Shown here in pieces: positions 40,598 through 64,000 of a stretch of 64,000 nt of DNA. Position 1 is the stretch's first letter. Each line of letters opens with the position of its first letter. The notes beneath the pieces were generated by a model. The model ran no database searches. It was not told where the DNA came from and saw only the letters and a program-made list of their open reading frames with translations. This stretch comes from Actinomycetota bacterium. Lineage in GTDB: Bacteria; Actinomycetota; UBA4738; HRBIN12. Both the position numbers and the translations under genes were made by a program. Location: assembly GCA_038249195.1 (NCBI GenBank), contig JBBRWM010000005.1:190220-254219 (forward strand). Direction: 5' to 3'.

Positions 40598-41463
40598 TCG
40601 CCCAAGGGTACCTCTCTCGCCACTTCCAAGGGCGAAGCGGGATGGCGGATCCAGCCTTGCTCGATGTCGCGCAGGACTACGCGCTGAAGTTCCTCCACGA
40701 CGAAGGCCTTTTCGACCGTGGAGTGGTGCTCAAAGGCGGAACGTCGCTGCGCAAGCTCCGGGTCGGCAACGCCGGGCGTTTCTCAACTGATCTGGACTTT
40801 GCGGTGCCTGACGTCGGAACCGCCGAACTGCTGCTCGACAGCATCGACGGCGCCGAGTTGTTCGACGTCCGGTTCTCCTTGTCCGACAGGGAAGCGCTCC
40901 GAGCGAAGCTCCTCGTAGAGACACCACTTGGCCGACCGCAGATCCCGGCGAGGATCGAGATCTCACTTCGGCCTCTATGGTTGGCGACTGCGCTCATGAT
41001 CCCGGTTGCCCTCCCGGTCCATGCCGGCTATGAGTTCACCCTGCCGCCCATACCAGCTCCGGCCCTGGAAGAGTCCCTCTCGGAGAAGCTTGCGGCATGG
41101 CGGCGCCGGCGGAAGATCCGAGATCTGTACGATCTTGACCTCTTCGGCCGTGGAGGCCTTGACCAGGCGCTCATCCGTTGCCTTCTCGTGCTCAAGGTCT
41201 GGCACGACGTCGTGGACGACGGCCTCGGGGTGGGCCCCTTTGATCCCGCCGAGATCGTCGCGGACATCGACGTCCGCGGGCTCCCTTCCGAGGACATCGG
41301 ACTCCTCACTCAGCCCGTGGATCCCGTTGCATGGCTCGCTCGAGTTCGAGCGAGGTACGGTTTCCTCACCCAACTCGACGACGCCGAAGAGCGCGTAGCC
41401 AGGTGCAGCCCCGCCGACCGATACGAGGTATCACAGCTGATTGCGGCACTCATGTCTCGATAG
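40594..41463 (+). CDS. abiEii: Type IV toxin-antitoxin nucleotidyltransferase toxin AbiEii (Rv2826c/MenT4-like)
   Basis: ALLDVAQD, LKGGTSLRK...GRFSTDLDF, EKLAA...RDLYDL, VLKVWHDVVDD. Confidence 0.9.
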   Translation: MIAQGYLSRHFQGRSGMADPALLDVAQDYALKFLHDEGLFDRGVVLKGGTSLRKLRVGNAGRFSTDLDFAVPDVGTAELLLDSIDGAELFDVRFSLSDREALRAKLLVETPLGRPQIPARIEISLRPLWLATALMIPVALPVHAGYEFTLPPIPAPALEESLSEKLAAWRRRRKIRDLYDLDLFGRGGLDQALIRCLLVLKVWHDVVDDGLGVGPFDPAEIVADIDVRGLPSEDIGLLTQPVDPVAWLARVRARYGFLTQLDDAEERVARCSPADRYEVSQLIAALMSR

Positions 41464-46738: not shown

Positions 46739-46839
46739 CGATCGCCTCCCGGGGCCGATCCCCTCCCAACGCGACCGTAGCCCCCGCACCAGCCGGTTCG
46801 GTCGCCGTTGGGCCCGCTCCGGCGGGGACTCCTGGCCGT

Positions 46840-50851: not shown

Positions 50852-51406
50852 CTACCCGTCGGGGGTCGTGCGCCCGTACTGATCCGGGATGCTTCCCCAA
50901 CCCCACGTGACGACAGGACCCTTCGGACGCACGCCGTACACGTCCTCCGGGTCGACTCCGACCTCGATCACCGTGCACCGGTGTGTCCAGCCATCTCCGA
51001 AGTCGAATTCGTACTCGAAGACCTCCCCCTCCTCCCGCCGCGCGAGCTTGCTCCGCGCGGCGTCACGATACGGAAGCTCGTCGTCCGGGATCCCGATCCC
51101 GACGCCATCGGCCATCCGAAAGGCGTACAGATGTCCCAGATCCCACCGTGCGAACGCGGCGTTGATCGTCTCGGCGAGCTGCCGGAACGTGTGCTGGGGC
51201 GAGATCAACACGTCGCGCCCCGGAGGTGGGTCGCACACGATACCGCGGCCATGCGGGAGCTCGATCCTGATGACGTACCAACCGTCGAGTCGTCCCGAAG
51301 GCCCGGGCTTCGGAAGCGTGATCCTCTCCAGCCGCTCCGCGAGGAGCGACATCGTCTCCGGATCCTTGGCCTCCACCAGGCGCAAGATCCGCTCGCGATC
51401 GTCCAC
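50852..51406 (-). CDS. pRiA4b ORF-3-like (IS1096 passenger TnpR-like) protein
   Basis: TFRQLAETINAAFARWDLGHLYAF...FEYEFDFGDGWTHRC. Confidence 0.75.
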   Translation of the reverse strand: MDDRERILRLVEAKDPETMSLLAERLERITLPKPGPSGRLDGWYVIRIELPHGRGIVCDPPPGRDVLISPQHTFRQLAETINAAFARWDLGHLYAFRMADGVGIGIPDDELPYRDAARSKLARREEGEVFEYEFDFGDGWTHRCTVIEVGVDPEDVYGVRPKGPVVTWGWGSIPDQYGRTTPDG

Positions 51407-51649: not shown

Positions 51650-52300
51650 CTAGGTGGTGACGCCGAGGTCCTGGCCGATCAGGCTCGTGAGCGTCGCCTC
51701 ACCGAGACCGCCCACCCAGATGTCGGCGATCGCTCCGCCCGGCCGCACGAAGATCGTGGTGGGCATCCCCGTTGTGCCGGCCGCGCGGAAGAAGGCCCCT
51801 GAGGCGTCGATCCCGGCCGGGTAGGTGATACCCGTTCGCTGGGCGAGCGCGATGCTGGCCGCCGTGCTATCGCTCTGCGAGACGCCGAGGAAGCGCACTC
51901 GATCGCCGAGGGCCTGATGGACCTTCTCGAACTCGGGCATCTCGCCTACACAGTTCGGGCACCAGGACGCGAAGAAGTTGATGACGAGCGGCTTGTCGGA
52001 GAGGGTGGCATAGTCGATCGTACCGCTGCCCTCGAGGGTTGGGAGCTCGAGCCGTTCGAGGGTGCCGCCTCTGCGGATCGTTCCCGCGTACGCAACCTCC
52101 TGGGACGAGTCGCGGCGGATGTCTCGGGTCAGGACGAGCCCGATCGCGCCCACCAGGACAACCACCGTCTCCAGCACGCCAAACCGCCGCAGCCCGGCAC
52201 CGGCGCGATCCCGCCGCCGCTGTCGCTTCCGCTCCGCCGCGGCCTTGGCGCGACGTTCGGTCTTGCGCGCCCTCGCTCCGTCATCTCGTCCTATCGACAT
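51650..52300 (-). CDS. Membrane-anchored TlpA/ResA-like thiol-disulfide oxidoreductase (start uncertain)
   Basis: TM segment, KPLVINFFASWCPNC..EMP, GMPTTIFV. Confidence 0.85.
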   Translation of the reverse strand: MSIGRDDGARARKTERRAKAAAERKRQRRRDRAGAGLRRFGVLETVVVLVGAIGLVLTRDIRRDSSQEVAYAGTIRRGGTLERLELPTLEGSGTIDYATLSDKPLVINFFASWCPNCVGEMPEFEKVHQALGDRVRFLGVSQSDSTAASIALAQRTGITYPAGIDASGAFFRAAGTTGMPTTIFVRPGGAIADIWVGGLGEATLTSLIGQDLGVTT

Positions 52301-52366: not shown

Positions 52367-52392
52367 ACCTTTGATAGAGATTGGAGGCGCCG

Positions 52393-53463
52393 GTGGGAGT
52401 GCATGGATCGACCCCTGGCATCCGCGGCCGGACGGTGGGGCTGGCTGTAACGCTCGCGCTCATGGCCGCGGCTTGCACGCATTCGACGGCGCCGCCGGAC
52501 TCGAGCTCGAGCCGTGCCTCGCAACAGGAACCCGGTCCGATCGCGCCCTCACCGCTGGTCGAAGCGGACCAGATCGTCTCTGGCGGCGTGCCCCCCGATG
52601 GCATCCCGCCGATCGACGACCCCACATTCGTCCTTGCGACCGGTGCTCCGAAGTTGGCCCCCCAAGAGCCCGTCATCGCGGTCGAGATCAACGGGGTGTC
52701 GAAGGCCTACCCGGTGCGGATCATGACCTGGCACGAGGTCGTGAACGACGAGTTCGCCGGGGCGCCGGTCCTCGTCACGTATTGCCCGCTGTGCAACACC
52801 CGCATCGCGTTCCTGCGCCCGAGGATCGAGGGCGAAGTTCTCGACTTCGGCACCAGCGGCAAGCTCTACGACTCCAACCTCGTCATGTACGACCGCCAGA
52901 CCATGTCGTATTGGCCGCAGGCGTTGGGCGTGGCGATCACCGGACCGCTCACCGGCACCAAGCTCACCTTCGCTCCAGCGCGATTGCTCGCGTGGTCGGA
53001 CTGGCGGGCGGCGAACCCCCAGGGTCTCGTCCTTTCCGCGAATACGGGGTTCGCGCGCGCCTACGGCACGAACCCGTACGTCGGGTACGAGAACGCCCGG
53101 TTCCCGTTCCTGTTCAACGGTGACCTGGATCCCAGGCTCCCGGCGACGGAGCACGTGCTCGGCGCGCCCGGGATCCGGCCGATCGCATTCTCATACTCGG
53201 CGCTGTCAAGACGCGCCGCCGCGGGCGAATCGTCGACGAACAGACGGGGCACGACGTGGACGATAGACGGGCGGGGTGTGTCGGGTCCGCTCGCGGGGTC
53301 GAGGCTTCGCGCCGCGTTGGCGATCGACAGCTTCTGGTTCGATTGGGCGGCGTTCCATCCAGATACGACGGTATACGGTGCGCCGGATCGGCTGGGTCGC
53401 TCCCCCAGGGTCAACAGGTCAACCCGCCACTCGATCGGTCGTCCCGGAGCCCTCGATGCGTAG
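52393..53463 (+). CDS. DUF3179-domain lipoprotein
   Basis: Lipobox MAAAC; GGVPPDGIPPID, KAYP..WHEVVND, VTYCPLCNT, FGTSGKLYDSNLVMYDRQT, FWFDWAAFHPDT. Confidence 0.85.
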   Translation: MGVHGSTPGIRGRTVGLAVTLALMAAACTHSTAPPDSSSSRASQQEPGPIAPSPLVEADQIVSGGVPPDGIPPIDDPTFVLATGAPKLAPQEPVIAVEINGVSKAYPVRIMTWHEVVNDEFAGAPVLVTYCPLCNTRIAFLRPRIEGEVLDFGTSGKLYDSNLVMYDRQTMSYWPQALGVAITGPLTGTKLTFAPARLLAWSDWRAANPQGLVLSANTGFARAYGTNPYVGYENARFPFLFNGDLDPRLPATEHVLGAPGIRPIAFSYSALSRRAAAGESSTNRRGTTWTIDGRGVSGPLAGSRLRAALAIDSFWFDWAAFHPDTTVYGAPDRLGRSPRVNRSTRHSIGRPGALDA

Positions 53464-54162
53464 AACGGTTCCTCGATCGAAGACCGGAGCGACGGTGTGC
53501 CCGAGGGCCGAATACACGTGGGGCGGGACCGAGATATCGGCCAGGTACAGCTCACCGACGAGTGCGGCGCCGAGTCGCAGGCCGATCTTGGGCATGGCGA
53601 GCGTTAGCGTCGATGTCGCGTGAACGCACGGGTCGCCGATGCGTCCAGATGACGTGTCGAGCCCGCTGGGGACATCGAGCGAGCAGACCGGGGCGGCTTG
53701 TACCGCCGTCCACGAGATGAGCTCGGCCGCCAGCCCCCGGGGGTCGCCCGACAACGCGTACCCGATGAGCGCATCGATCACGACGTCGGCGTCGACCGGC
53801 TCGCTGGCGACAGGAACCCCCATGCGCCGGAGCGTTTCGAGCTGGCGCCTCGGTACCTCTCCCAACTCGCCGGCAGTTGTCGACGGAACCACGGTTACGG
53901 CAACGCCGCGGACGGCGAGGTGCCGCGCCGCCACCATCCCGCCACCCCCGTTGCCCCCGCTTCCCACGAGCACTGTCACGTCGGCCGGCGCGAACCGCCA
54001 GAGCACGAGCTCCGCCAGGTTCGCGCCCGCGTTCTCCATCATCTGGATCAGCCCGATACCCAGATCTTCCACCATGATGCGATCGACCTCACGCATCTCG
54101 TCGGTGCTCAGCCAGGCCAGCTCACGAGCGTCGACAACAGGGACGCGCGGGCGCTCACTCAT
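53419..54162 (-). CDS. nnrE: Stand-alone NAD(P)H-hydrate epimerase (YjeF N-terminal domain)
   Basis: MREVD, MMENAG, GSGGNGGGG..AARHL, IDALIGY, SLDVPSG, TLTLAMPK, LADISVP. Confidence 0.88.
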   Translation of the reverse strand: MSERPRVPVVDARELAWLSTDEMREVDRIMVEDLGIGLIQMMENAGANLAELVLWRFAPADVTVLVGSGGNGGGGMVAARHLAVRGVAVTVVPSTTAGELGEVPRRQLETLRRMGVPVASEPVDADVVIDALIGYALSGDPRGLAAELISWTAVQAAPVCSLDVPSGLDTSSGRIGDPCVHATSTLTLAMPKIGLRLGAALVGELYLADISVPPHVYSALGHTVAPVFDRGTVLRIEGSGTTDRVAG

Positions 54163-56053
54163 GGCCGAGGGAACCTTCGGCGCGTTCCGCTCGCGCGATC
54201 GCCACCGCCGCGTTGACCAGGCCGATGTGGCTGAATGCCTGAGGGAAGTTGCCGAGGAGTTCGCCGGTGTTGGGCTCCACCTCCTCGGCCAACAGTCCAA
54301 CGTCGTTGGCGTAACCGATCGCACGCTCGAACGTCGCCCGAGCATCCGCGAGGCGACCCGCCATGGCCTGCGCTTGGGCGAGCCAGAACGTGCACAGGAG
54401 GAAGCTGCCTTCCTCGCCATCCAGGCCGTCACGGCTCCGATAGCGCACGACGAGCCCTCGCTCGTCGGTGAGTCGTTCGCCGATGGCATCGATCGTGGCG
54501 AGCATGCGGGGATCGGTCGCCGAGATGAACCCCACGATCGGCATCATGAGCACAGAGGCGTCGAGGTCGCTCGAACCGAGAGACTGAGTGAAGGCGCCCG
54601 CGCTGTTACTCCATCCTTCGTCGAGGATCGCGGTGCGGATCTCGGATCGAGCGCGTCGCCAGTCGTCGACGCGGTCGGTCGCGCCGAGGCCGTCTGCCAG
54701 CGCGATCGCGCGATCCACCGCGACCCAGCACATGAGTTTGGAATACAGGAATGGGCGGCGACCGCCGCGCACCTCCCAGATGCCTTCGTCGTCTTCGCGC
54801 CACCGCTCGGCCGCGGCGTCCGCGACGTCGGCAAGGAAGTGTCTCGTGAGGTCATCGAACTCGTCGAACTCCTCCCGGAAGACGGCAGCGGCATCGAGCA
54901 ACTCGCCGTACACGTCCAGCTGGAGTTGATCCCAGGCACCGTTGCCGATCCGGACCGGCGAGCTGCCCCGATACCCGCGCAGGTGGGGGAGCTCGCGTTC
55001 GGAAAGATCATGTTCGCCACCGATCCCGAACATGATCTGCAGGCCGGACCCCTCGTGCAGGCTTTCGGCAGCCGAGCCGGCCATCCACGAGAAGAAGTGA
55101 TGTGCCTCCGCCGGACACGCGGTCTTGCTCAATGCCTGGATCGTGAAGCTCGCGTCACGAACCCAGGCGTATCGGTAGTCCCAGTTCCTGACGCCGCCGA
55201 CCGTCTCGGGCAGCGACGTTGTCGGGGCGGCGACCATCGCCCCGGTTGGACGGAAGGTCAGCGCTTGCAACACTCGGCCGCTGTGCATCACGAGCTCGCG
55301 CCACGGGCCGTCGTATCCATCATGGGCCCGGGACCAAGCGGCCCATATGTCGATGGTCTGGTCGATCAGCTGCTCGGCGTCGGCCTCATCGAACGACCGG
55401 GGCGCGGGCTCCCAACTCTGTGCGTGGTTGAGGGCGAACGTCAAACGCTCGCCCACTCGGAGTTCGACCTCTGCCTTCGCCGTCGACCCCTCGACATCGA
55501 AGGGAACCCGGCCAGAGAGAACCAGCACGCTCGCGCCGCCGCGAGCGATGAGCCCGCCGTCGATCGTGCGGAGTAGTGGCGAGATGAGACCGTATTCGGG
55601 CCGCGGAGCGTACTCGACGCCGATGCGCACACCCCCCTGGGTGCAGACCACCCGGCGGATGAGCGCACCCGGTGCCACACCGCCGACCTCATGAGTGCCG
55701 TCGACGCTAGCGCCGACCGCGTACGCGTCTTCCAGCGTGATGGTGCCCGATACGGTGCTGAACGTGGTCTCAAGGACCATCGTGCCGTCCAGGTAACGGC
55801 GTTGCACTTCTGCCGTTTCGGTTGGCGCGATCGTCCAGTGACCGGCTCGCTCGTCCAGCAACCGACAGAACACGGGCGCCGCGTCGAAGCGGTCGAAGCA
55901 CAGCCAGTCGATCGATCCGGCCTTGGATACCAGGGCCGATCCGTGGGAATCGGAGAGCAGGCCGTAGTCGGCGATCGGAGTGCTCAAGTGGTCATCAGCC
56001 GTGCCCGGCCCCGACGTGTCGGGTGCTGCCACCCTCCGGATCGCGCGTGTCAT
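54155..56053 (-). CDS. Glycoside hydrolase family 15 (second copy)
   Basis: IADYGLLSD, AAPTTSLPE..GGVRNWDYRYAWVRD, QLDVYGE, LLAEE...GNFPQAFSH; overlaps the nnrE start. Confidence 0.93.
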   Translation of the reverse strand: MTRAIRRVAAPDTSGPGTADDHLSTPIADYGLLSDSHGSALVSKAGSIDWLCFDRFDAAPVFCRLLDERAGHWTIAPTETAEVQRRYLDGTMVLETTFSTVSGTITLEDAYAVGASVDGTHEVGGVAPGALIRRVVCTQGGVRIGVEYAPRPEYGLISPLLRTIDGGLIARGGASVLVLSGRVPFDVEGSTAKAEVELRVGERLTFALNHAQSWEPAPRSFDEADAEQLIDQTIDIWAAWSRAHDGYDGPWRELVMHSGRVLQALTFRPTGAMVAAPTTSLPETVGGVRNWDYRYAWVRDASFTIQALSKTACPAEAHHFFSWMAGSAAESLHEGSGLQIMFGIGGEHDLSERELPHLRGYRGSSPVRIGNGAWDQLQLDVYGELLDAAAVFREEFDEFDDLTRHFLADVADAAAERWREDDEGIWEVRGGRRPFLYSKLMCWVAVDRAIALADGLGATDRVDDWRRARSEIRTAILDEGWSNSAGAFTQSLGSSDLDASVLMMPIVGFISATDPRMLATIDAIGERLTDERGLVVRYRSRDGLDGEEGSFLLCTFWLAQAQAMAGRLADARATFERAIGYANDVGLLAEEVEPNTGELLGNFPQAFSHIGLVNAAVAIARAERAEGSLGHE

Positions 56054-56310: not shown

Positions 56311-56793
56311 ATGGTGACGTTCCAGACAGGCCCCGCATTGTTCAGCGGCTTCGTGGCAACCGTCGCGATGACGATGGTGATGATGGCGGGCCGGGCGATG
56401 GGGATGACGACGATGGACATGCCGCTCATCCTCGGTGGCATGGTCACGGCGGACGGATCAAGAGCGCGGCGCCTCGGGCTGGCCATCCACGTCGTGATGA
56501 TGGGGACCGTCGCCTTCGGGGTTGTCTATGCAGCTCTGTTCACTTTGCTCGACTCCGACGCCGCGCTGACTGGCGTGGCGATCGGCCTCGTCCACGGTCT
56601 TCTATTCGGCCTCATGGTGCTCCCGATGATGCCGGCGATCCACCCACGGATGAAGGCCTCAGCCGATGGGTTCCACCTCGATCCCCCGAGAATCATGGGC
56701 GCCACCTACGGTCGAGGTACGGGGATAGGTCTTCTCCTCGCGCACGCAACCTACGGCCTGGTCATAGCACTGGTGTATGGAGCCATCACGTGA
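56311..56793 (+). CDS. Met/His-rich four-TM membrane protein of unknown function
   Basis: About four hydrophobic helices with intramembrane His (AIHVVMMG, LVHG, LAHATYG) and a Met cluster; GGGAG RBS; GTGA overlap with the radical SAM gene. Confidence 0.75.
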   Translation: MVTFQTGPALFSGFVATVAMTMVMMAGRAMGMTTMDMPLILGGMVTADGSRARRLGLAIHVVMMGTVAFGVVYAALFTLLDSDAALTGVAIGLVHGLLFGLMVLPMMPAIHPRMKASADGFHLDPPRIMGATYGRGTGIGLLLAHATYGLVIALVYGAIT

Positions 56794-58331
56794 CGCGCGA
56801 GCATCCGACGCCTTCCCCAGCAGGAACTCCACCTCCGAGAGCCGATCGAGATGAGGTCTTCTTGGAGGTAACGAAGAGCATCTGCCCGCTGTGCAAACGG
56901 GTGCTCGACGCCGAGGTGAACATCCGCGACAACAGAGTCATCCTTCGCAAACGCTGCCCCGACCACGGCGAGTTCGAAGCGCTCGTCTACGGGGACGCCA
57001 CGATGTACATGGACGCGCTGCGGTTCAACAAGCCGGGCACGTACCCGCTCGAGACACAGACCGAAGTCGTCGACGGGTGCCCGTTGGATTGCGGGCTGTG
57101 TCCGGACCACAAGCAGCACGCGTGCGTCGGCTTGATCGAGGTGAACTCGAATTGCAACCTGGACTGCCCGGTGTGTTTCGCCGACTCCGGGCATCAGGCA
57201 GACGGGTTCTCGCTGACCATGGAGCAGGTCGAGCTCGGCCTCGACACCTTCGTCCGGGCTGAAGGCGAACCAGAGGTGCTGATGCTCTCCGGCGGCGAGC
57301 CCTCCATCCACCCGCAGATCCTGGGATTCATCGCCATGGCACGGGACAAGGGGATCCGTCACGTCGTTCTGAACACGAACGGGATCCGATTGGCTCGAGA
57401 CCGTGCCTTCGCTGCTGCATTGGCCAAGGAACGCACCGCGATCTACCTGCAGTTCGATGGACTTCGGGAAGACACCCACGTCCGGATCAGGGGCCGCGAT
57501 CTGCGCACGTTGAAGGATCAGGCCCTCGACCGCTGTGCCGAGTTCGGTCTGTCGGTCACGTTGGTGGCGGCCGTGGAGAAGGGTGTGAACGACGACGAGC
57601 TCGCCGACATCCTGCGCTTCGGATTCGCCCATCCGGCGGTGCATTCGGTGGTGTTCCAGCCGGTCACGCACGCGGGACGTCATCTCCAGTTCGAGCCACT
57701 CGAGCGGCTCACGAACTCCGACGTGATCCACGCGATCGTGGACCAGATGCCCGAGACGTTCGAGCTGAACGACTTCTTCCCGGTGCCCTGTTGCTTCCCG
57801 ACCTGTCGGAGTGTCACCTACCTGCTGGTCGACGGTGAAGACATCGTGCCGGTGCCGAGGATCCTCAACATCGAAGATCACCTCGACTACGTGACGAATC
57901 GCGCGCTGCCCGACCCCGCGATCCGCGGGGCATTGGAGAGGCTCTGGAGCGCATCGGCGGTGCCGGGAACTGCCGACACGGCGGAACAGCTCGCCTGTGC
58001 GACGTGCGCGATCGACCTGCCGGAAGCGGTTCGCAACCTCACGGACAAGGCGTTCATGATCGTGATCCAGGACTTCCAAGACGCATATACGTTGAACGTA
58101 CGGCAGCTCATGAAGTGCTGCGTCGAACAGATCACACCCGACGGACGTCTGATCCCGTTCTGCGCGTACAACTCGGTCTGGTATCGCGAGGAGATCCGAG
58201 CCCAGCTCACCGGCTTGACGGTCGAAGATGTGGTTCCCAATGCACGAGCCTTGCAACCGCTGCTGCGATCCGGCCCGCACGGTTCCAAGGTGGTGGGGCG
58301 GCCATCGGCGACGACCCATCCTCGGAACTGA
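56790..58331 (+). CDS. Multi-cluster radical SAM enzyme of the Tes/GDGT-MAS (MJ0619)/TrsS-like family
   Basis: SICPLC...CPDHGEF, GCPLDCGLCPDH, CNLDCPVC (CX3CX2C), SGGEP, LNTNG, YLQFDG, FQP, KCC..ITPDGRLIPFCAYN. Confidence 0.85.
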   Translation: MTREHPTPSPAGTPPPRADRDEVFLEVTKSICPLCKRVLDAEVNIRDNRVILRKRCPDHGEFEALVYGDATMYMDALRFNKPGTYPLETQTEVVDGCPLDCGLCPDHKQHACVGLIEVNSNCNLDCPVCFADSGHQADGFSLTMEQVELGLDTFVRAEGEPEVLMLSGGEPSIHPQILGFIAMARDKGIRHVVLNTNGIRLARDRAFAAALAKERTAIYLQFDGLREDTHVRIRGRDLRTLKDQALDRCAEFGLSVTLVAAVEKGVNDDELADILRFGFAHPAVHSVVFQPVTHAGRHLQFEPLERLTNSDVIHAIVDQMPETFELNDFFPVPCCFPTCRSVTYLLVDGEDIVPVPRILNIEDHLDYVTNRALPDPAIRGALERLWSASAVPGTADTAEQLACATCAIDLPEAVRNLTDKAFMIVIQDFQDAYTLNVRQLMKCCVEQITPDGRLIPFCAYNSVWYREEIRAQLTGLTVEDVVPNARALQPLLRSGPHGSKVVGRPSATTHPRN

Positions 58332-58335
58332 CGGC

Positions 58336-59142
58336 ATGACGACGATCGTCGATCCCGCAACGGTGAAGGCATGCTGCACCTCGCTGTACGAACACAGGCT
58401 CACGGGGTGGCTGCTGGAGGATGGATTTCATCCCGGTGGTGTGGCCCTGACTGACCGACTCGTCGAGCTCCTCGAGGTGTCGGCCGAACAGCAGGTGGTC
58501 GACGTCGCCGCCGGGCCGGGAACGTCGGCACTTCGCGTCGCAGCCACGATGGATGCTCGGGTGCACGGAGTGGATCTGTCCTCGGCACTCGTCGAGGCGG
58601 CGACCGAGCGGGCACGAAACCAGGGTCTATCCGATCGCGTTGTTTTCACCGTCGGCGATGCGGAGCGCCTGCCGCTGGGCGACGGTGCGGCGGACGTGGT
58701 TCTGTGCGAATGCTCGCTCTGCATCTTCCCGGATAAGCGCGATGCCGTACGGGAGATGGCCCGCGTGGTTCGGCCGGGTGGGCGGGTGGGTGTCGCGGAC
58801 GTCGTGGTCGATCGACGCCGTCTTCCTCCGGAACTCGATACCCTCGCGGCACGCGTCGCGTGCATCGCGGATGCGCGAACCCTCGAGGAGAACATCGGTC
58901 TTCTCCAGGGGGGAGGTCTCCGCATCGACGTCATCGAACGTCACGACGCGGCGGTCATGGCGATGCTCGACCGGATCGACGCGCGTCTCGCTATCGCTCG
59001 GATGGCCCTCCCTGCGGAGCGAACCGACGACATCCGGCGTGCGCGCTCGATCGTGTCGTCCGTCAGGCGGGTGGTCGAAGACGGTGTGGTCGGCTACGCC
59101 CTCGTCGTGGCGACCAGAGCGGACGGCGATCGTGTCGCGTGA
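58336..59142 (+). CDS. Class I SAM-dependent methyltransferase, Cys-rich (ArsM-like Cys pattern)
   Basis: KACC, HPGG, VDVAAGPG, GDAERLP, VLCECSLC, RPGGRV, ACIADA. Confidence 0.85.
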   Translation: MTTIVDPATVKACCTSLYEHRLTGWLLEDGFHPGGVALTDRLVELLEVSAEQQVVDVAAGPGTSALRVAATMDARVHGVDLSSALVEAATERARNQGLSDRVVFTVGDAERLPLGDGAADVVLCECSLCIFPDKRDAVREMARVVRPGGRVGVADVVVDRRRLPPELDTLAARVACIADARTLEENIGLLQGGGLRIDVIERHDAAVMAMLDRIDARLAIARMALPAERTDDIRRARSIVSSVRRVVEDGVVGYALVVATRADGDRVA

Positions 59143-59231: not shown

Positions 59232-59759
59232 ATGGCCACTGATCAGGACGAGTTCTTGCGAGCCACGATGGGATGCCTGGATCTCGTCCATAACCTGGCG
59301 CGGCGGACGGTGTATTCACCTGAGGATGCCCAGGATCTCGTGCAGGAGACCTATCTCGCCGCCTTCCGTGCATGGCAGGACGACCGGCGCCCCAACAAGG
59401 TCGAACCGTGGATCGCGACCATCTGCCTGAACCTCGGGCGGTCCTTCTTCCGGCGACGCGCTCGTCGGCCATATGAGGTTGCGCTCGACGATCGCTTGAT
59501 CGTGTTGCCCGATGGCTCCGACCCCGAAGCTGACGCGATCGCGACGCTCGATCGCGAGGCGCTACACGCGGCGATGTGGCAACTCCCGGAGGAACAACGC
59601 ACTGCCATCACCCTCGTCGATCTCGGGGGTTTGAGCACAGCCGAGGCCGCCGAGGTGATGGGAACGCCCCAGGGGACGGTCCTGTCTCGCCTTCATCGCG
59701 GTCGTCGAGCGCTCGCGATCCTGATGACCAACGACATCCCGCAGCGGGAGGTGACCTGA
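59232..59759 (+). CDS. ECF sigma factor (SigH/SigR-like)
   Basis: DAQDLVQETYLAAFRAW; LPEEQRTAITLVD..S..EAAEVMGTPQGTVLSRLHRGR. Confidence 0.92.
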   Translation: MATDQDEFLRATMGCLDLVHNLARRTVYSPEDAQDLVQETYLAAFRAWQDDRRPNKVEPWIATICLNLGRSFFRRRARRPYEVALDDRLIVLPDGSDPEADAIATLDREALHAAMWQLPEEQRTAITLVDLGGLSTAEAAEVMGTPQGTVLSRLHRGRRALAILMTNDIPQREVT

Positions 59760-60065
59760 ATGTCCCGAGAGCGGATCGATCCGGCTCTGGATATCCGACG
59801 CGCCCACGACCCCGAGATGAACGCGTCGCTCTATCTGGCCGGCGAGCTGCCGAGGCGATTGACCCGCTGGCTCGAGCGTCACCTCCTCGAGTGTGATGAC
59901 TGCTGGCGGGAAGTGTGGCTGGCTCGGCGTGGCCGCTTCATCGCCGAGCACGCCCGCGAGCTGGCGCCCCCAACCCTTCGAGACGCGGTGCGTGGTGCGG
60001 TTCAGCTATCGGCGACCGAGTATCGATCGGCACGTCGTCGCAGGGCCTGGTTCCGCCGACGCTGA
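59760..60065 (+). CDS. Zinc-binding anti-sigma factor (zf-HC2/ZAS)
   Basis: YLAGEL...LERHLLECDDC (HxxxCxxC); small, soluble, directly after the sigma gene. Confidence 0.88.
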   Translation: MSRERIDPALDIRRAHDPEMNASLYLAGELPRRLTRWLERHLLECDDCWREVWLARRGRFIAEHARELAPPTLRDAVRGAVQLSATEYRSARRRRAWFRRR

Positions 60066-60123
60066 CGAGCGGTCGCGCTGATGGCCTGGCGGCACTGAGG
60101 ACCCTGACAGCTTGTCCCCGACG

Positions 60124-60677
60124 TCAAGACCGCGCGGGGCCTCGCTCGTAGAGCTTCATCGCCCGGCGGAAGCCGACGAGGCCGATCAACGCGCACCGGA
60201 CAGCGCTGAGCAGCGCGCTGTTGCCGATCGCCGTCCCCATCAGGAGTCCGCGCAACGTTTCGATGAACGGCGTGAACGGCTGGTATTCGGCGAAGCGGAT
60301 CCCCGCCGGCATCGAGTCAACGGGGACGAATCCGCTGCTGAGGAACGGCAACAGGTTGGCCATGAGCGCCGGGTTCTCCTCGCCGGTCAGGAGCGTGTCC
60401 ACCGCGGAGAACTGCCCGGTGACCCCGATGACGTCGCGGACGGCGTTCGGCTCCCGTGCCGCGTCGTGGCCCGCGACCCGCACCGTTCCGGAGTCGGGAT
60501 CGAGCAGCGTCGACAGGATGTGCACGGTCGTGGTCTTCCCGGCGCCGTTCGGCCCGAGCAAGCGAAGACCGAACCGGTTGCGATCTGGAGGTCGATGCCG
60601 TCCAGCGCGACCGTGTCGCCGAACGACTTGCGGAGGCCGGCGACCTCGAGCGCCGGGGCGGTGGTGGTGGCGGTCAC
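60124..60677 (-). pseudogene. Collapsed DrrA/DrrB-type ABC exporter: ATPase 5' part fused to permease 3' part
   Basis: GLRKSFG..LDGIDL / frameshift / LLGPNGAGKTT...GQFSAVDTLLTGEEN then directly LPFLSSGFVPVDSMP...YQPFTPFIETLRGLL; no ABC signature or Walker B. Confidence 0.85.
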
Positions 60678-61552
60678 GACGCATCCCTGCCTGCGCGGCT
60701 CGACAGCGAACGGTGGATCTCGATGTCGCCGAACGAGGTCGACGCGTGCACCTCGACCGTGGCCATCCCCGCCTCGGGACTCACAGAGTCATCAAGGCCG
60801 TTGTGCACGTTGCCGAACTTGGTATGGAGGTCGAGCCAGGCCGCGACGCCGTCGAGGACACCGACCTCGATCTGGCCGAACGCAGTCTGCGCAACGGCTG
60901 CACCACGCGCGACCTCCCCGATGCGAACGTCGCCCTTGGCCGTCTTGGCGACGACCCCTTCGTGCGCCCGATCGACGGAGATCGAACCATCGGCTGCGCT
61001 CACGCGGGCTGCACCCGATACCTCGCCGATCCAGGTGTCGCCGCTCGAGTTCTTCGTCGCGGCGGTCCCGTCGATGCTGCCGATCCGCACAGCGCCGGAG
61101 CCCGTGACGATCTCCACCTTGCCGACGGCCCGTTCCATCGTGATGTCGCCGACACCGGTCTTGAGGTTCAGGCGGCCCGTCTCGTCGAGCCGGATCTCGC
61201 CGACACCGACCTTGCACTGGCACTCGCCGAGCCGGCCGCGGCCGTGCACCGCCCCCACTCCCGCCTCGACACGCACGCGCGAGCCCTCGGGCAGACCGAT
61301 CTCGACGTCGATCGATCCGCCGCCCCGGTGCGGGCTCCATTGCCGCCAGCCGCTTTGCGCCTTGACCTGCAGGTTTCCGTTCGCGTAGTCGACGCGGGTC
61401 TGCTCGGCGGCCGTAACATCGGCCTTCTTCGTCAGGTCGCTCGGTCGCACCTCGACGGTGGTCTCGGTGCGATCGCTCGCCTCGATCCGGAGGTCCCCGA
61501 CGCCGAGCTCCACATCGACGGAGATCGGCTCGGGGGTGTCGAACGTCGCCAT
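60674..61552 (-). CDS. DUF4097 beta-strand repeat protein
   Basis: MATFDTPEPISV..., repeated KTG.GDI / GEV.G units, AWLDLHTKFGNV; GGAGG RBS. Confidence 0.82.
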   Translation of the reverse strand: MATFDTPEPISVDVELGVGDLRIEASDRTETTVEVRPSDLTKKADVTAAEQTRVDYANGNLQVKAQSGWRQWSPHRGGGSIDVEIGLPEGSRVRVEAGVGAVHGRGRLGECQCKVGVGEIRLDETGRLNLKTGVGDITMERAVGKVEIVTGSGAVRIGSIDGTAATKNSSGDTWIGEVSGAARVSAADGSISVDRAHEGVVAKTAKGDVRIGEVARGAAVAQTAFGQIEVGVLDGVAAWLDLHTKFGNVHNGLDDSVSPEAGMATVEVHASTSFGDIEIHRSLSSRAGRDAS

Positions 61553-61572
61553 GGCAGTTCCTCCTGTCTCGT

Positions 61573-62106
61573 TCATCGGGCCCAGCCCGAGTAACGCTGG
61601 GCGCCGTGTGGGGCACGTCGTTCGCGGCCGCGGATCCCTTCGCTGCGCTCGAGTCGAGCGGCGGCGGCTCGCACCAACCACGCGTTGATCGACAGCCCCT
61701 CGCGCTCGGCGGCGTGTTCGATCCCGGCCTTGAGGGTCTCGGGCATGCGGACGTTGATCCGCGAGATCGTGCCCTCGTCGCCTTCGCCCGCGGGGCGCGA
61801 AGCGACCCAGTCGCCCCGGTCCAAGTCCTCCCCTTCGGCCTCTTCCTGGACAGCCAGATCGGCTGGCGGTCGTGTCACCACGAACTGCGGCTCACGCCCT
61901 CGGAGTCGGAGCTCGACCGAGCCGGGGGCCAGCTCGACCGTGATCTCCTCCGCCGCGGCCGCCAACACGTCCTGGATCGCGAGCCGGATGGCGGCGTCCA
62001 GCGGTTGGGCGAGGCGTCTCGCGAGCTCGCGCGCCTCCTCGCCGCCCGCCTGAGCCGCGGCGTCGAGGTGCGCGTGGATGTCCCCGATGAATGGTCCCAG
62101 TTCGAT
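61573..62106 (-). CDS. Actinobacterial HicB-like ribbon-helix-helix regulator; start codon reads ATC
   Basis: (I)ELGPFIGDIHAHLDAAAQAGGEEARELARRL...ELAPGSVELRLRGREP...RINVRMPETLK..IEHAAEREGLSINAWLVRA. Confidence 0.75.
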   Translation of the reverse strand: MELGPFIGDIHAHLDAAAQAGGEEARELARRLAQPLDAAIRLAIQDVLAAAAEEITVELAPGSVELRLRGREPQFVVTRPPADLAVQEEAEGEDLDRGDWVASRPAGEGDEGTISRINVRMPETLKAGIEHAAEREGLSINAWLVRAAAARLERSEGIRGRERRAPHGAQRYSGWAR

Positions 62107-62112
62107 GGCAGC

Positions 62113-62141
62113 ATTCTGGCATCATGATAATGCCGTGTCAA
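62113..62141 (-). promoter_or_regulatory. Sigma70 promoter TTGACA-N17-CAGAAT with overlapping TGCC/GGCA repeats
   Basis: TTGACA (62141-62136), 17 nt, CAGAAT (62118-62113), 6 nt, then the ATC start, i.e. leaderless geometry. Confidence 0.75.
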
Positions 62142-62176
62142 TGCCGTTCGTGTGCCATCAGGGTCCAGGACGGCAC

Positions 62177-63046
62177 CTAGTCGGGCAGGAGCGGTACCTG
62201 AAGGCTCTGGGGGCGCCGGAGGAGCACACCGCGCGTGATGGCCGCTGATCCGAAGCGGTCGTGCACCGCGTCGAGCGTGGCGTCGATGGAAGAGGCGAGG
62301 AGGCCGTCGAACGGCAAGGCGAGCTGGATCGCGCCGTCGTCGAGGGGGTTGGTGAAGCTCACGCCGATCAGCGTGATGCCCTGATCCTGGATCATCGGCA
62401 GGGCCGCCGCGAGGAGGGCTCTGGCGGCTCCGAGCATCGTCTCGGTGTCCACCGTAGCCTCGGGAAGGGTGTGCGAGCGCGTCGCTCGGGTGAAGTCGTC
62501 GAACCGGAGGCGGAGCACGACCGTGCGGCAGACCCGGTGCGCCGATCGCAGCCTGCGCGCCAGCCGATCCACCAGGGCGATGAGGTTTGTCCAGCGCCTC
62601 ATCTGACTTCGGTCGTCGGCCGAGCGCCCGCTGGGTCCCGATCCAGCGGCGCCGGCGGCCGACGTCGACGCGCCGAGGATCCCGGTTGTGGGCGAGCGCG
62701 TGGAGGTGGCGGCCCGCGGCGCGGCCCAGGATCCGCATCGTCGAGGAACGCCTTCGCCGATCGAGAGCCCCTCAACGAAGGGCGTCGTGTCGTTGAACCT
62801 CGAACATGGCCTTGCTCGCGGCGCCGTAGGCGTCCATCCGTGGCGCCACGACGATCGCGTCCGGACACAGGCGGGAAGCCTCGAACTCGCCCATCGGGGT
62901 TCGCACGCCGTAGGCCTTCGCCTCGTAGCTGGCGGCGAGCACCACGCCGCCGCCGACGATGACGGGCGCCCCCGCAGGTTGGGATGCTCGACCGATGTGT
63001 AGAAGGAGTCGGCGTCCGCGTGCAAGATTGTGCCCTCGTTCGACAC
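62177..63046 (-). pseudogene. dinB: DNA polymerase IV, multiple frameshifts and large internal deletions
   Basis: ILHADADSFYTSVE, VLAASYEAKAYGVRTPM, TPFVEGLSI, RTVVLRLRFDDF..ATRSHTL, LDAVHDRFG scattered across frames in about 870 bp. Confidence 0.88.
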
Positions 63047-63136
63047 TGACGTAGGCTCGCTTGAGCCTCCGACATCGAGGAGGCGGCCAAGTCGTGGACC
63101 GCTATCATCGGGACCGGCACCACGGAGGGGGAAACC

Positions 63137-63577
63137 ATGAAGCGTTTCGAGGATCGGATCTCGATCAACGCGCCGGCAACTCGCGTCTTCGACTACGTCG
63201 CCGATTTCACTCGACATGGCGAATGGGGAGGACACGGCCTCGAAGCGACCAAGACGGGCGAGGGTCCCGTGGCGGTGGGATCGACCTTCTCGACGACGGC
63301 GAAACAGTTCGGGACGCAGCGCGAGCAGAGCACGGTCACCGAGGTCGTCCCCGGCACGTCGTTCGCCTGGGATTCCACGGGCGCGCTCGGCCGCGCCCAT
63401 CACGCGTTCTCGCTCTCCGAAGACGCCGGGTCGACGACGCTGACCAAGAGTGCGGAGCTCGTCGAGCCGACCTTCCTGGCGAAGCTCACGGGCTGGAAGC
63501 TCTCGAGGGACATACCCAAGGGCCTCCACAGCGACCTCGCCAACATCAAGGCCAACGTGGAAGGGTCCGCGACCTGA
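63137..63577 (+). CDS. SRPBCC (START/polyketide cyclase-like) protein
   Basis: ISINAPATRVFDYVADF..HGEW...DLANIKA; GGAGG RBS. Confidence 0.85.
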   Translation: MKRFEDRISINAPATRVFDYVADFTRHGEWGGHGLEATKTGEGPVAVGSTFSTTAKQFGTQREQSTVTEVVPGTSFAWDSTGALGRAHHAFSLSEDAGSTTLTKSAELVEPTFLAKLTGWKLSRDIPKGLHSDLANIKANVEGSAT

Positions 63578-63589
63578 CCTAACCACGGC

Positions 63590-63757
63590 ATGATCGGTCG
63601 GCCCAGCGTGACCAGACGGACGTTCCGCGCGGCCGAGCGCCAGCCCATCGCGCGCGCGGCGGGCGAGTAGTCGATCGCGCCCGGAGGAAGCCGAACGGAC
63701 AGCGCCTGCGACCTGATCGAGAACGAGCGGCGGATCCATCGCGAGCGCCTCCCCCGT
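63590..63757 (-). pseudogene. Possible C-terminal fragment of a diacylglycerol-kinase-family protein
   Basis: GEALAMDPPL / frameshift / FSIRSQALSVRLPPGAIDYSPAA. Confidence 0.4.
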
Positions 63758-64000
63758 CCAGTCCAACGTCAGACGGGCGATCCCGAGGACACTTCGAAGG
63801 AAGGCGCCGATTACGAACGCAGCCTCAGACGTGGACGGGGTAGCTGTACCTGATCCTGGCCGACGCGATGGCGCATTCAGAGGTGGGCGGCGCGTGCACG
63901 TGCAGGATCGACTGGGTGGGCGTGTGACGCAGGGTCTTGTGGCACCCGTAGTAGCCGCCATCGATCCCGAACGAGACCGACCTGATCCGTTGTCCCGGCT

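What the first reader, a model, noticed from the sequence alone, without database searches (positions are those of the whole stretch)
56790..58331. Tetraether-lipid-synthase (Tes/GDGT-MAS)-like radical SAM enzyme in an actinobacterial island
Seen in sequence: besides CX3CX2C the protein has an N-terminal CxxC...CxxH site, a CPxxCGLCxxH motif and a C-terminal CC...TPDGRLIPFCxYN motif. Established knowledge: this architecture is that of archaeal MJ0619/Tes (GDGT-MAS), which makes C(sp3)-C(sp3) bonds between lipid tails. Bacterial homologues, including the TrsS-type proteins that pair with a methyltransferase, are largely uncharacterised. Inference: it either makes membrane-spanning or cross-linked lipids (the producers of soil branched GDGTs are only partly known) or catalyses a different, unknown radical reaction.
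Basis: partly seen in the sequence, partly recalled or inferred. Interest (0 to 1): 0.75.

Follow-up and report, generated by a model that had tools for sequence, protein, structure and literature searches.

The report
Tes-like radical enzyme with methyltransferase partner
This actinobacterial gene encodes a relative of the archaeal tetraether-lipid synthase that sits next to a cysteine-rich, arsenite-methyltransferase-like enzyme in every relative checked; the pair probably carries out an unknown radical-plus-methylation reaction, not tetraether synthesis.

Summary
It has the full GDGT-MAS/Tes fold: 7TOL E 2.7e-75, TM 0.76-0.81.

It is not a Tes or a TrsS:
- It scores below both NCBIfam cut-offs (323 of 450 bits; 347 of 490 bits).
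- It falls in a third clade. An AU test rejects joining it with Tes (p 2.6e-13).
- It has Gln where archaeal Tes has the conserved Met439 and Tyr459.
- It carries seven further invariant cysteines, including a triad (C112, C334, C444) absent from Tes.

The conserved unit is two genes, not three. A methyltransferase follows the enzyme in 77 of 77 related loci that have downstream DNA. That methyltransferase keeps both cysteines that align with the arsenite-methyltransferase cysteines, plus an N-terminal CC.

The pair is accessory. It was found in 12 of 401 sampled Actinomycetota genomes and in 0 of 4 congeners, and it lies in a stretch that differs from the closest congener.

Links to lipids are indirect. 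Links to arsenic or selenium were not found.

My best reading is radical C-H activation of a hydrophobic chain, coupled to methylation of a heteroatom. The product is unknown. Earlier notes of this scan describe the same pair on other DNA.

The parts
56311..56793 (+). DUF6789-family small membrane protein (160 aa). It is translationally coupled to the radical SAM gene. It is a lineage-specific extra and not part of the conserved unit.
   Evidence: Pfam DUF6789 E 1.7e-6. ATG at 56311 follows GGGAGA. Its stop overlaps the GTG at 56790. tblastn finds it in 1 of 80 related loci, L007 only.
56790..58331 (+). Tes/TrsS-superfamily radical SAM enzyme (513 aa). Its sites are:
- a rubredoxin-like site (C32, C35, C56, H59)
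- an N-terminal cluster (C97, C101, C104, H107)
- the radical SAM cluster (C122, C126, C129)
- a C-terminal cluster triad (C339, C443, C458)
- seven further invariant Cys (C112, C249, C334, C335, C403, C406, C444)
58336..59142 (+). Class I SAM methyltransferase (268 aa), a relative of the DVU_1556 family. It has an N-terminal CC (C14, C15), an HPGG motif, and C127/C130/C177. Numbering counts from 58333, one residue before the ATG. C127 and C177 align with the two cysteines of Chlamydomonas ArsM.
   Evidence: It lies directly downstream in 77 of 77 loci that have downstream DNA and in 5 of 5 further homologues.
59232..59759 (+). ECF-type sigma factor, 90 nt downstream on the same strand. It may be the regulator. 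Membership of the unit is not shown.
   Evidence: Pfam Sigma70_r2/r4. A sigma-factor cluster lies within 5 kb in 18 of 81 sources, the window included.
59760..60065 (+). Anti-sigma factor with an HxxxCxxC (ZAS) motif. It starts directly after the sigma gene's stop.
   Evidence: The translation shows HLLECDDC. There is a weak NCBIfam RsrA match: 23 bits against a cut-off of 62.5.

Best explanation
This is a two-enzyme module, and probably a complex.

- **The radical step.** The radical SAM enzyme uses the Tes scaffold: a SAM-cleaving cluster, two auxiliary clusters and a rubredoxin-like site. It abstracts hydrogen from an unactivated carbon of a hydrophobic chain, most likely a lipid or isoprenoid tail.
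- **The capture step.** Tes captures the radical on the C-terminal cluster and then joins a second tail. Here the radical is instead captured by a soft heteroatom held at the active site. Sulfur is the most likely; selenium or arsenic are possible. The extra cysteines C112, C334 and C444 and their neighbours would hold it.
- **The methylation step.** The ArsM-like methyltransferase binds that heteroatom between its paired cysteines and methylates it, either before or after the radical step.
- **The product.** The product would be a chain carrying a methylated heteroatom group, not a membrane-spanning lipid.

Shown here: the fold, the ligand sets, the separate clade, the constant pairing and the accessory distribution. 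Inferred: the substrate class, the heteroatom and the order of steps.
For: **Fold and ligands**
- The fold and all Tes metal ligands are kept, so radical chemistry next to a C-terminal cluster is feasible.
- In GDGT-MAS the substrate radical is stored as a C-S bond to that cluster (PMC9433317, passages read).

**Differences at the active site**
- The Tes hallmarks Met439 and Tyr459 align with Q427 and Q447.
- C112, C334 and C444 are invariant in 79-80 of 80 clade members.
- These three are common in every non-Tes group (0.50-1.00 of rows) and nearly absent from Tes. C112 is in 0 of 8 rows; C334 and C444 are each in 1 of 8 rows.
- They persist in the LGT-fused clade, where the three C-terminal cluster ligands are lost. 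This makes them a separate site.

**The methyltransferase**
- C127 and C177 align with the 'SNCV' and 'GECLAGA' cysteines of ArsM 5EVJ.
- C14, C127, C130 and C177 are invariant in 29 of 29 aligned partners, and C15 is nearly invariant.
- The methyltransferase domain fused to a true TrsS (P0223) keeps the equivalents of C127 and C177.

**Pairing**
- The partner is adjacent in 77 of 77 loci with downstream DNA and in 5 of 5 further homologues. The gap between the genes is 4 nt.

**Hydrophobic or lipid link**
- A sister clade is fused to the phosphatidylglycerol-using LGT domain in 50 of 55 hits.
- CDP-alcohol phosphatidyltransferase-like genes lie just after the methyltransferase in 12 + 7 of 80 loci. 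Patatin is nearby in 8 loci and SRPBCC in 11.

**Against a core membrane role**
- The pair was found in 12 of 401 sampled genomes, 0 of 4 congeners and 0 of 22 genomes of the same family.
Against: - No substrate or product has been observed.
- I could not measure where the extra cysteines sit in the model, because no coordinates are given. They may simply bind a fifth iron-sulfur cluster used for electron transfer.
- The LGT-linked sister clade has no methyltransferase in 0 of 80 loci. The lipid link and the methyltransferase link therefore come from different clades.
- The nearest solved methyltransferases are sugar and natural-product O-methyltransferases (3BUS at E 5e-23; ArsM at only 1.8e-9).
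- The neighbour genes with lipid names occur in a minority of loci. Each was labelled from a single representative per cluster.
Confidence: 0.4

Rival explanations
1. It is a genuine membrane-spanning lipid synthase. Like Tes, it couples two alkyl tails tail-to-tail. The methyltransferase adds methyl branches or modifies the head group, giving brGDGT-like or diabolic-acid-like lipids in some Actinomycetota.
For: - Whole-length Tes fold and all cluster ligands.
- Bacterial Tes homologues have been proposed as brGDGT enzymes (PMC8941075, passages read; PMC11868695, passages read).
- Phospholipid-type neighbour genes occur in 19 of 80 loci.
- GDGT-MAS variants M439A and Y459F/L are still active, so losing these residues need not abolish coupling (PMC9433317).
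Against: - It lies outside the Tes clade (AU p 2.6e-13) and below the Tes cut-off.
- It is present in 12 of 401 genomes and absent from the congeners searched, which is odd for a membrane-architecture gene.
- A C-methylase of saturated tails would not need the ArsM cysteine pair.
- The papers I read state that no bacterial Tes homologue has been verified. The verified bacterial enzyme, Mss, was described as not detectable with Tes as query (PMC13159169).
Confidence: 0.15
2. It is an organo-metalloid pathway of the ArsS/ArsM or ArsL/ArsM type. The methyltransferase methylates As(III), or Sb, Se or Te. The radical SAM enzyme forms a carbon-metalloid bond to a lipid-like chain, for example an arsenolipid.
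For: - The methyltransferase keeps both cysteines that align with the ArsM cysteines, plus an N-terminal CC.
- NCBIfam ArsM-type models are among its hits: 94 bits for PRK11873 and 70 bits for the arsinothricin ArsM.
- Radical SAM plus ArsM pairs are the known route to C-As bonds (PMC12159101, passages read; abstracts listed).
- A three-cysteine site (C112, C334, C444) is the usual As(III) ligand set. This last point is recalled, not tested here.
Against: - No Acr3 was found in this 97.5%-complete genome.
- The best ArsM-family match in the genome is this methyltransferase itself, at 93 bits against a cut-off of 263.
- None of the 12 recurrent neighbour clusters I put through Pfam had an ars-type domain.
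- SelD is not enriched among carriers: 9 of 12 carriers against 275 of 401 sampled genomes.
- Earlier notes of this scan on other genomes also report no conserved arsenic link (these notes are unchecked).
Confidence: 0.15
3. The substrate is not a lipid. The pair modifies a cofactor, small metabolite or protein, as may be true of the TrsS systems that carry NTP-transferase and DUF5714 fusions. The Tes-like tunnel has been re-used for another substrate.
For: - The C-terminal half fits the TrsS model end to end (residues 27-461 on model positions 2-430 of 441), whereas it fits Tes only in two pieces.
- True TrsS proteins occur fused to a MobA-like NTP transferase with an HD domain, and to DUF5714. 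These look like cofactor chemistry.
- Q427 and Q447 make the site more polar than in Tes.
- Thiol-redox genes (redoxin, DsbD_TM, DUF3179) and a ZAS anti-sigma factor recur nearby.
Against: - The protein is in a clade separate from TrsS.
- The sister clade is fused to LGT, a lipid-handling membrane enzyme.
- The redox neighbours occur in only 6-18 of 81 sources.
Confidence: 0.2

Closest known systems
GDGT-MAS / tetraether synthase Tes (M. jannaschii MJ0619, PDB 7TOL/7TOM; NCBIfam NF045702)
   Same: - Domain order and fold: TM 0.76-0.81 over 483-509 columns.
- The rubredoxin-like CX2CX20CX2H site.
- The N-terminal C/C/C/H cluster.
- The CX3CX2C motif.
- The three C-terminal cluster cysteines.
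   Different: - 27-30% identity over the structural alignment; 323 bits against a cut-off of 450.
- A separate clade.
- Gln in place of Met439 and Tyr459.
- Seven extra invariant Cys.
- A constant methyltransferase partner.
- Bacterial, accessory and patchy in distribution.
TrsS radical SAM (seleno)protein with the DVU_1556-family methyltransferase (NCBIfam NF045646, NF045667). It is listed as a selenoprotein family in PMC13188914 (table passage). The source paper, Haft & Tolstoy 2025, is not held.
   Same: - The same superfamily.
- The same kind of partner. The methyltransferases are 27% identical and share the C127 and C177 equivalents.
- C112 and C249 are shared.
- Function is untested in both.
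   Different: - 347 bits against a cut-off of 490, and 131 bits against 155 for the methyltransferase.
- Outside the TrsS clade, which has SH-aLRT support of 98.
- TrsS keeps Met at the Met439 column in 26 of 26 rows, whereas this clade has Gln.
- C335 and C403 are absent from TrsS rows, and C406 is in only 0.31 of them.
- No NTP-transferase or DUF5714 partner was seen here.
ArsM arsenite methyltransferase, and the ArsS/ArsM and ArsL/ArsM pairs
   Same: - A radical SAM gene sits next to a methyltransferase with paired cysteines.
- The cysteines align with ArsM 5EVJ, and the DVxVDR-RLP stretch is shared.
   Different: - The methyltransferase is not a member of the ArsM family (94 bits against 263).
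- The radical SAM enzyme's best NCBIfam hits are TrsS and Tes, and no ArsS or ArsL model is among the 25 shown.
- No ars genes were found around it or in the genome search.
LGT-fused Tes-like radical SAM proteins of Planctomycetota and Verrucomicrobiota MAGs (unnamed clade found here)
   Same: - The same large unassigned superclade.
- They keep C112, C334 and C444.
   Different: - They are fused or adjacent to LGT in 61 of 80 loci and have no methyltransferase in 0 of 80 loci.
- They have lost the three C-terminal cluster ligands.

Membership tests
Tes / GDGT-MAS (NF045702) | Score at or above the curated equivalog cut-off (450 bits) | tested here: not met
   322.7 bits, in two stretches. The genome search gave 262 + 60 bits.
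Tes / GDGT-MAS (NF045702) | Four metal sites: a rubredoxin-like C,C,C,H site; an N-terminal cluster with C,C,C,H; CX3CX2C; and a C-terminal cluster with three Cys | tested here: met
   C32/C35/C56/H59, C97/C101/C104/H107, C122/C126/C129 and C339/C443/C458. These are the same columns as in 8 of 8 Tes rows. The motifs follow PMC9433317.
Tes / GDGT-MAS (NF045702) | Met439 and Tyr459, reported as completely conserved in 1000 archaeal homologues | tested here: not met
   They align with Q427 and Q447. At the first column 10 of 10 clade rows have Gln. At the second they have Gln, Glu or Met. Tes rows have Met in 6 of 8 and Tyr in 6 of 8 (PMC9433317).
Tes / GDGT-MAS (NF045702) | Whole-length fold like 7TOL/7TOM | tested here: met
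   AlphaFold2 model with pLDDT 89.3 and pTM 0.89. Foldseek E 4e-44, TM 0.76-0.81. The next-best fold is MoaA at TM 0.38.
Tes / GDGT-MAS (NF045702) | Placement inside the Tes clade | tested here: not met
   Tes is a separate clade (99). Forcing the clade together with Tes costs 100.6 log-likelihood units, p-AU 2.6e-13. The group was named after a tree had been seen.
Tes / GDGT-MAS (NF045702) | Couples two lipid tails (C-C bond) and binds phospholipid in hydrophobic pockets | not testable with these tools
   No model coordinates are given, and no biochemistry is possible.
TrsS (NF045646) | Score at or above the curated cut-off (490 bits) | tested here: not met
   347.3 bits.
TrsS (NF045646) | Placement inside the TrsS clade | tested here: not met
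   The TrsS rows form one clade with support 98 that lacks the window's protein. The FastTree result is the same.
TrsS (NF045646) | A partner methyltransferase of the DVU_1556 family (cut-off 155 bits) | tested here: inconclusive
   The partner is present and homologous, but it scores 131.2 bits, below the cut-off. It is 27% identical to the methyltransferase domain of the TrsS fusion P0223.
TrsS (NF045646) | A selenocysteine/cysteine position that defines the selenoprotein | not tested
   The position is not given in the review table, and the source paper is not held.
ArsM (NF008823), for the methyltransferase | Score at or above the cut-off (263 bits) | tested here: not met
   94 bits; 93.3 bits in the genome search.
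ArsM (NF008823), for the methyltransferase | The two substrate-binding cysteines about 50 residues apart | tested here: met
   C127 and C177 align with the cysteines of 5EVJ. That those residues bind As(III) is recalled from the literature and was not read here.
ArsM (NF008823), for the methyltransferase | Arsenic-resistance gene context | tested here: not met
   No Acr3 in the genome. None of the 12 recurrent neighbour clusters scanned with Pfam had an ars-type domain.
Mss (bacterial membrane-spanning lipid synthase) | Homology to the Thermotoga/Thermoanaerobacter Mss | not tested
   No Mss sequence was available to me. PMC13159169 reports that Tes used as a query finds nothing in those genomes. 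A protein this close to GDGT-MAS is therefore unlikely to be an Mss orthologue.

The most novel reading that the evidence does not exclude
The pair is the missing enzyme system for lipids with a heteroatom at an unactivated carbon. The Tes-like enzyme makes an alkyl radical on a lipid tail. It joins that radical to sulfur, selenium or arsenic held by the extra cysteine triad. The ArsM-like partner methylates the same atom. The products would be methylthio-, methylseleno- or dimethylarsinoyl-lipids. The last would be the first biosynthetic route to arsenic-containing fatty acids or hydrocarbons.
Probability: 0.12. Interest if true: 0.9.

Novelty: new variant of a known kind. Interest (0 to 1): 0.55.

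Why it matters
Genome surveys count bacterial 'Tes homologues' as potential producers of the branched tetraethers used as palaeoclimate proxies. This clade has the Tes fold, but it differs at hallmark residues and always travels with an ArsM-like methyltransferase. Counting such genes as tetraether synthases is therefore unsafe.

The family is large: 702 representatives at E 1e-30 or better. Most of those I scanned fit neither named family (65 of 99).

If the chemistry is radical C-heteroatom bond formation on lipids, it would be a new enzyme reaction. Cultured carriers exist, including Kitasatospora, Streptomyces and Nocardia species, so the question can be tested.

Tried and rejected
- **Complex prediction of enzyme plus methyltransferase.** The verdict was weak support: ipSAE 0.46 against a best control of 0.00. 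The mark was reached by 116 of 157 solved complexes and 2 of 215 mismatches. At 0.60 or under it was reached by only 18 of those solved complexes and by both mismatches. The runs agree in at least 63% of contacts, and partner pLDDT is at least 78. No interface was given. My own alignments were used, so the counts hold only roughly.
- **Selenium link.** SelD is present in this genome, but also in 275 of 401 sampled genomes. Nine of the 12 carriers have it, so there is no enrichment. Both tallies include unpublished genomes: G120, and 14 handles.
- **Arsenic link.** No Acr3 was found and no true ArsM.
- **Sequencing runs.** The best DNA holder may be the source sample. One RNA-library run holds contigs about 92% alike over the DUF6789, radical SAM and sigma genes. 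Contigs cannot show transcription, so this is a hint only.
- **First neighbour clustering.** It timed out. A too-strict GC3 filter then dropped the window's own gene. I reran it with a looser filter. Its counts are lower bounds. It also merged the enzyme and the methyltransferase into one cluster because one locus has them in a single open frame.
- **A frame error of mine.** My first 'membrane protein' query was out of frame. I corrected it.
- **Queries that could not be made.** Haft & Tolstoy 2025 is not held, so I did not see what it says about TrsS.
- **Literature searches for a characterised actinobacterial member.** Searches found none. Supplementary tables of the Tes surveys were not opened and may list this clade.
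- **Pocket and cysteine-distance analysis.** This was not possible, because model coordinates are not returned.
Full report
**1. The observation**

The ORF at window 56790-58331 (+) is open.
- C32xxC35...C56xxH59
- C97PLDC101GLC104PDH107
- C122x3C126x2C129
- KC443C444VEQITPDGRLIPFC458AYN

Its codon usage is that of a real gene in this 68% G+C genome: GC3 is 0.81 and GC2 is 0.43. Pfam finds the HMPTM zinc ribbon (E 3e-17) and the Radical_SAM domain (E 1.3e-20). The only close solved relative is GDGT-MAS (7TOL/7TOM), at E 2.7e-75 over residues 26-471. MoaA follows at 4e-7.

An AlphaFold2 model built on 65 sequences has pLDDT 89.3 and pTM 0.89. Foldseek superposes it on 7TOM/7TOL at TM 0.76-0.81 over 483-509 columns. 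The next-best fold is MoaA at TM 0.38.

**2. Gene limits and the local operon**

- The methyltransferase begins at ATG 58336, 4 nt after the radical SAM stop at 58329-58331. Relatives align from just after that ATG.
- Upstream, a 160-aa DUF6789 membrane protein (56311-56793; Pfam E 1.7e-6) ends 4 nt inside the GTG start of the radical SAM gene.
- Downstream on the same strand lie an ECF sigma factor (59232-59759) and an anti-sigma factor with HLLECDDC, an HxxxCxxC motif (59760-60065).
- A database gene call for the identical protein is 489 aa. Relatives align from residue about 12-17, which favours the longer start.

**3. What is conserved**

A scan of one genome per species returned 80 loci encoding relatives 62-82% identical. 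All are labelled Actinomycetota except one short contig labelled Gammaproteobacteria. They include Acidimicrobiia, Thermoleophilia/Gaiellales, Mycobacterium, Mycolicibacterium, Nocardia, Streptomyces and others.

- **Methyltransferase.** tblastn finds it on the same strand directly after the radical SAM gene in 77 of 80 loci. The other three (L016, L026, L054) end at the radical SAM match, so the count is 77 of 77 with downstream DNA. Five further actinobacterial homologues at 41-65% identity all have it too (5 of 5).
- **DUF6789 gene.** It is found in 1 of 80 loci. The conserved unit is therefore two genes.
- **Other neighbours.** These recur only in minorities of the 81 sources, which are the 80 loci plus the window. 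The ORFs were pre-filtered by GC3, so the counts are lower bounds, and each Pfam label was checked on one representative per cluster:

| Neighbour | Sources |
|---|---|
| DUF3179 | 18 |
| ECF sigma | 18 |
| CDP-alcohol phosphatidyltransferase-like, just after the methyltransferase | 12 + 7 |
| SRPBCC | 11 |
| Crp | 11 |
| DsbD_TM | 11 + 10 |
| Redoxin | 9 + 6 |
| Patatin | 8 |

**4. Family placement**

NCBIfam gives TrsS 347.3 bits (cut-off 490) and Tes 322.7 bits (cut-off 450). The methyltransferase scores 131.2 bits on the DVU_1556 family (cut-off 155).

A search of 1.84 billion representatives found 702 at E 1e-30 or better. I scanned 99 full-length ones among the best 150. Of these, 26 pass the TrsS cut-off, 8 pass the Tes cut-off, and 65 pass neither.

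- In a FastTree of 108 rows, the ten clade members sit with 52 unassigned rows on one side of a 99-supported branch. All Tes and TrsS rows, with 12 unassigned rows, sit on the other side.
- An IQ-TREE (LG+C20 PMSF, short search) of 51 rows gives the same picture. The clade lies inside a 26-row set (SH-aLRT 99), Tes is one clade (99) and TrsS is one clade (98).
- Holding the clade together with Tes costs 100.6 log-likelihood units, p-AU 2.6e-13. The group was named after a tree had been seen.

**5. Residues**

By the published numbering of GDGT-MAS (PMC9433317, passages read), the following are all present:
- the rubredoxin-like motif CX2CX20CX2H
- the N-terminal cluster (three Cys plus His)
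- the CX3CX2C motif

In a 108-row alignment, three C-terminal cysteine columns (C339, C443, C458) are filled in all 8 Tes rows, all 26 TrsS rows and all 10 clade rows. I take these to be the C-terminal cluster ligands.

The paper reports Met439 and Tyr459 as completely conserved in 1000 archaeal homologues. Here they align with Q427 and Q447. TrsS rows keep Met in 26 of 26.

Beyond the Tes set, this clade has seven more cysteines, each invariant in 79-80 of 80 members: C112, C249, C334, C335, C403, C406 and C444.
- C112, C334 and C444 are common to all non-Tes groups. C112 is in 0 of 8 Tes rows, and C334 and C444 are each in 1 of 8 Tes rows.
- In the LGT-fused clade the three C-terminal cluster ligands are replaced, yet C112, C334 and C444 remain. 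These three therefore form a site of their own.
- In sequence they lie 10 residues before the radical SAM motif, 5 residues before C339, and next to C443. I infer, but could not measure, that they are near the active site.

**6. The methyltransferase**

Overall it is an ordinary class I enzyme. Its nearest solved relatives are RebM-like O-methyltransferases at E 5e-23, and ArsM scores only 1.8e-9. In a search with residues 100-210 alone, however, the Chlamydomonas ArsM (5EVJ) aligns so that:
- C127 falls on the cysteine of 'SNCV'
- C177 falls on the cysteine of 'GECLAGA'
- a DVxVDR-RLP stretch is shared

That these are the As(III)-binding cysteines of ArsM is recalled, not read here.

C14, C127, C130 and C177 are invariant in 29 of 29 aligned partners, and C15 is nearly invariant. 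Across 77 partners these residues are kept in 75-77. The methyltransferase domain that is naturally fused to a true TrsS (P0223) keeps the equivalents of C127 and C177 at 27% identity. The pairing and its cysteines are thus shared by two separate branches of the superfamily.

**7. Links to lipids**

One unassigned representative (P0152) is a fusion of an LGT domain with the Tes-like enzyme. LGT is prolipoprotein diacylglyceryl transferase.
- Of 55 proteins matching its first 330 residues, 50 carry LGT plus the HMPTM zinc ribbon.
- In 80 metagenome loci of that clade, LGT is present in 61 and the methyltransferase in 0.

The lipid-handling partner and the methyltransferase partner therefore mark different clades. 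The lipid link for the window's clade rests on the shared scaffold and on the minority neighbours listed in section 3.

**8. Distribution**

- In an even sample of the phylum, 12 of 401 genomes have a match at E 1e-60 or better. This count includes the window's genome and one unpublished genome, G120.
- Eight of the 12 are at 61% identity or more, and four are at 42-45%.
- None of 4 same-genus genomes (92-97% complete) has it, and none of 22 genomes of the same family.
- Against the closest congener, window 26001-33054 matches at 94% and 60121-64000 at 83-93%. The stretch between has only paralogue-level matches, and the two flanks lie on different contigs there.
- That stretch also holds an AbiEii toxin gene, a heavy-metal P-type ATPase, a plasmid pRiA4b ORF-3-like gene and two GH15 genes.
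- G+C is 0.639 at 56-58 kb, against 0.66-0.72 in most of the window.
- 'Accessory region' is supported. I saw no integrase.

**9. Tests of the metalloid and selenium ideas**

- No Acr3 was found in this 97.5%-complete genome.
- The best ArsM-family match in the genome is the partner methyltransferase itself, at 93 bits.
- SelD is present. It is also present in 275 of 401 sampled genomes, a tally that includes 14 unpublished genomes. Nine of the 12 carriers have it. There is no enrichment.

**10. Mechanism**

Shown:
- a complete Tes scaffold with all clusters
- an extra cysteine site
- replacement of the two Tes hallmark residues
- a constant, translationally coupled partner with ArsM-type paired cysteines
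- an accessory distribution

Inferred: the enzyme abstracts hydrogen from a hydrophobic chain as Tes does. It does not couple a second tail. Instead the radical is joined to a soft heteroatom, and the partner methylates that atom. Sulfur is the default because no metalloid context was found.

I put this at 0.40. The rivals are true tail-to-tail coupling (0.15), a metalloid pathway (0.15) and a non-lipid substrate (0.20).

**11. What is known**

- Bacterial Tes homologues have been noted and proposed for branched tetraethers, but they are unverified (PMC8941075; PMC11868695; PMC13459092).
- The verified bacterial enzyme is Mss (PMC13159169; PMC13274423).
- TrsS is catalogued as a selenoprotein family (PMC13188914), but its source paper is not held.
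- My searches found no paper on this actinobacterial clade or on its ArsM-like partner.
- Earlier notes of this scan describe the same kind of pair in other genomes: Thorarchaeota, haloarchaea and several bacterial phyla. These are unchecked notes. My own tests agree with them on the pairing, the ArsM-like cysteines and the lack of an arsenic context.

**12. Verdict**

This is a real gene pair: a new actinobacterial branch of a widespread, uncharacterised variant of the Tes/TrsS kind. It should not be annotated as a tetraether synthase. Its interest is moderate to high for enzymology, and the product remains unknown.

Noticed in passing
window 51650-52300 (-) and 52381-53463 (+): A divergent pair of a redoxin/AhpC-TSA-like gene and a DUF3179 gene. 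DUF3179 recurs within 5 kb of the radical SAM-methyltransferase pair in 18 of 81 sources and in 2 of 5 further loci. A review lists DUF3179 as a selenoprotein family in some organisms (PMC13188914, table passage read).
   Followed up: partly
window 48581-50365 (+) and 54155-56053 (-): Two GH15 (glucoamylase/trehalase-like) paralogues with TREH_N domains lie 4 kb apart on opposite strands.
   Followed up: no
window 40549-41463 (+): An AbiEii nucleotidyltransferase toxin domain of a type IV toxin-antitoxin system lies in the variable stretch. The neighbouring antitoxin was not looked for.
   Followed up: no
window 44822-46789 (-): A heavy-metal (Cd/Zn-type) P-type ATPase. It scores 506 bits on TIGR01525, above the cut-off.
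   Followed up: no
window 50852-51406 (-): A plasmid pRiA4b ORF-3-like protein (Pfam E 2.2e-13). This hints that the variable stretch was acquired.
   Followed up: no
window 33055-60100: About 27 kb has no high-identity counterpart in the closest same-genus genome, while both flanks match at 83-94%. The flanks lie on different contigs there, so the limits of the region are uncertain.
   Followed up: partly
proteins P0152, P0275-P0326; loci L087-L166: A clade of Tes-like radical SAM proteins is fused or adjacent to an LGT domain, in MAGs labelled Planctomycetota (Tepidisphaerales) and Verrucomicrobiota. It has lost the three C-terminal cluster cysteines, keeps C112/C334/C444, and has no methyltransferase neighbour.
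   Followed up: partly
proteins P0203, P0236, P0218, P0258, P0223: True TrsS proteins occur fused to a MobA-like NTP transferase with an HD domain (DVU_1551 family), to DUF5714, or to the DVU_1556 methyltransferase.
   Followed up: no
window 62177-63961 (-): A protein with an IMS_C (impB/mucB/samB C-terminal) domain, possibly an ImuB-like translesion factor. It is conserved in congeners.
   Followed up: no
L075 4131-7355 (+): In one Streptomyces locus the radical SAM gene and the methyltransferase lie in a single stop-free frame. This may be a natural fusion or a sequencing error. It was not examined further.
   Followed up: no
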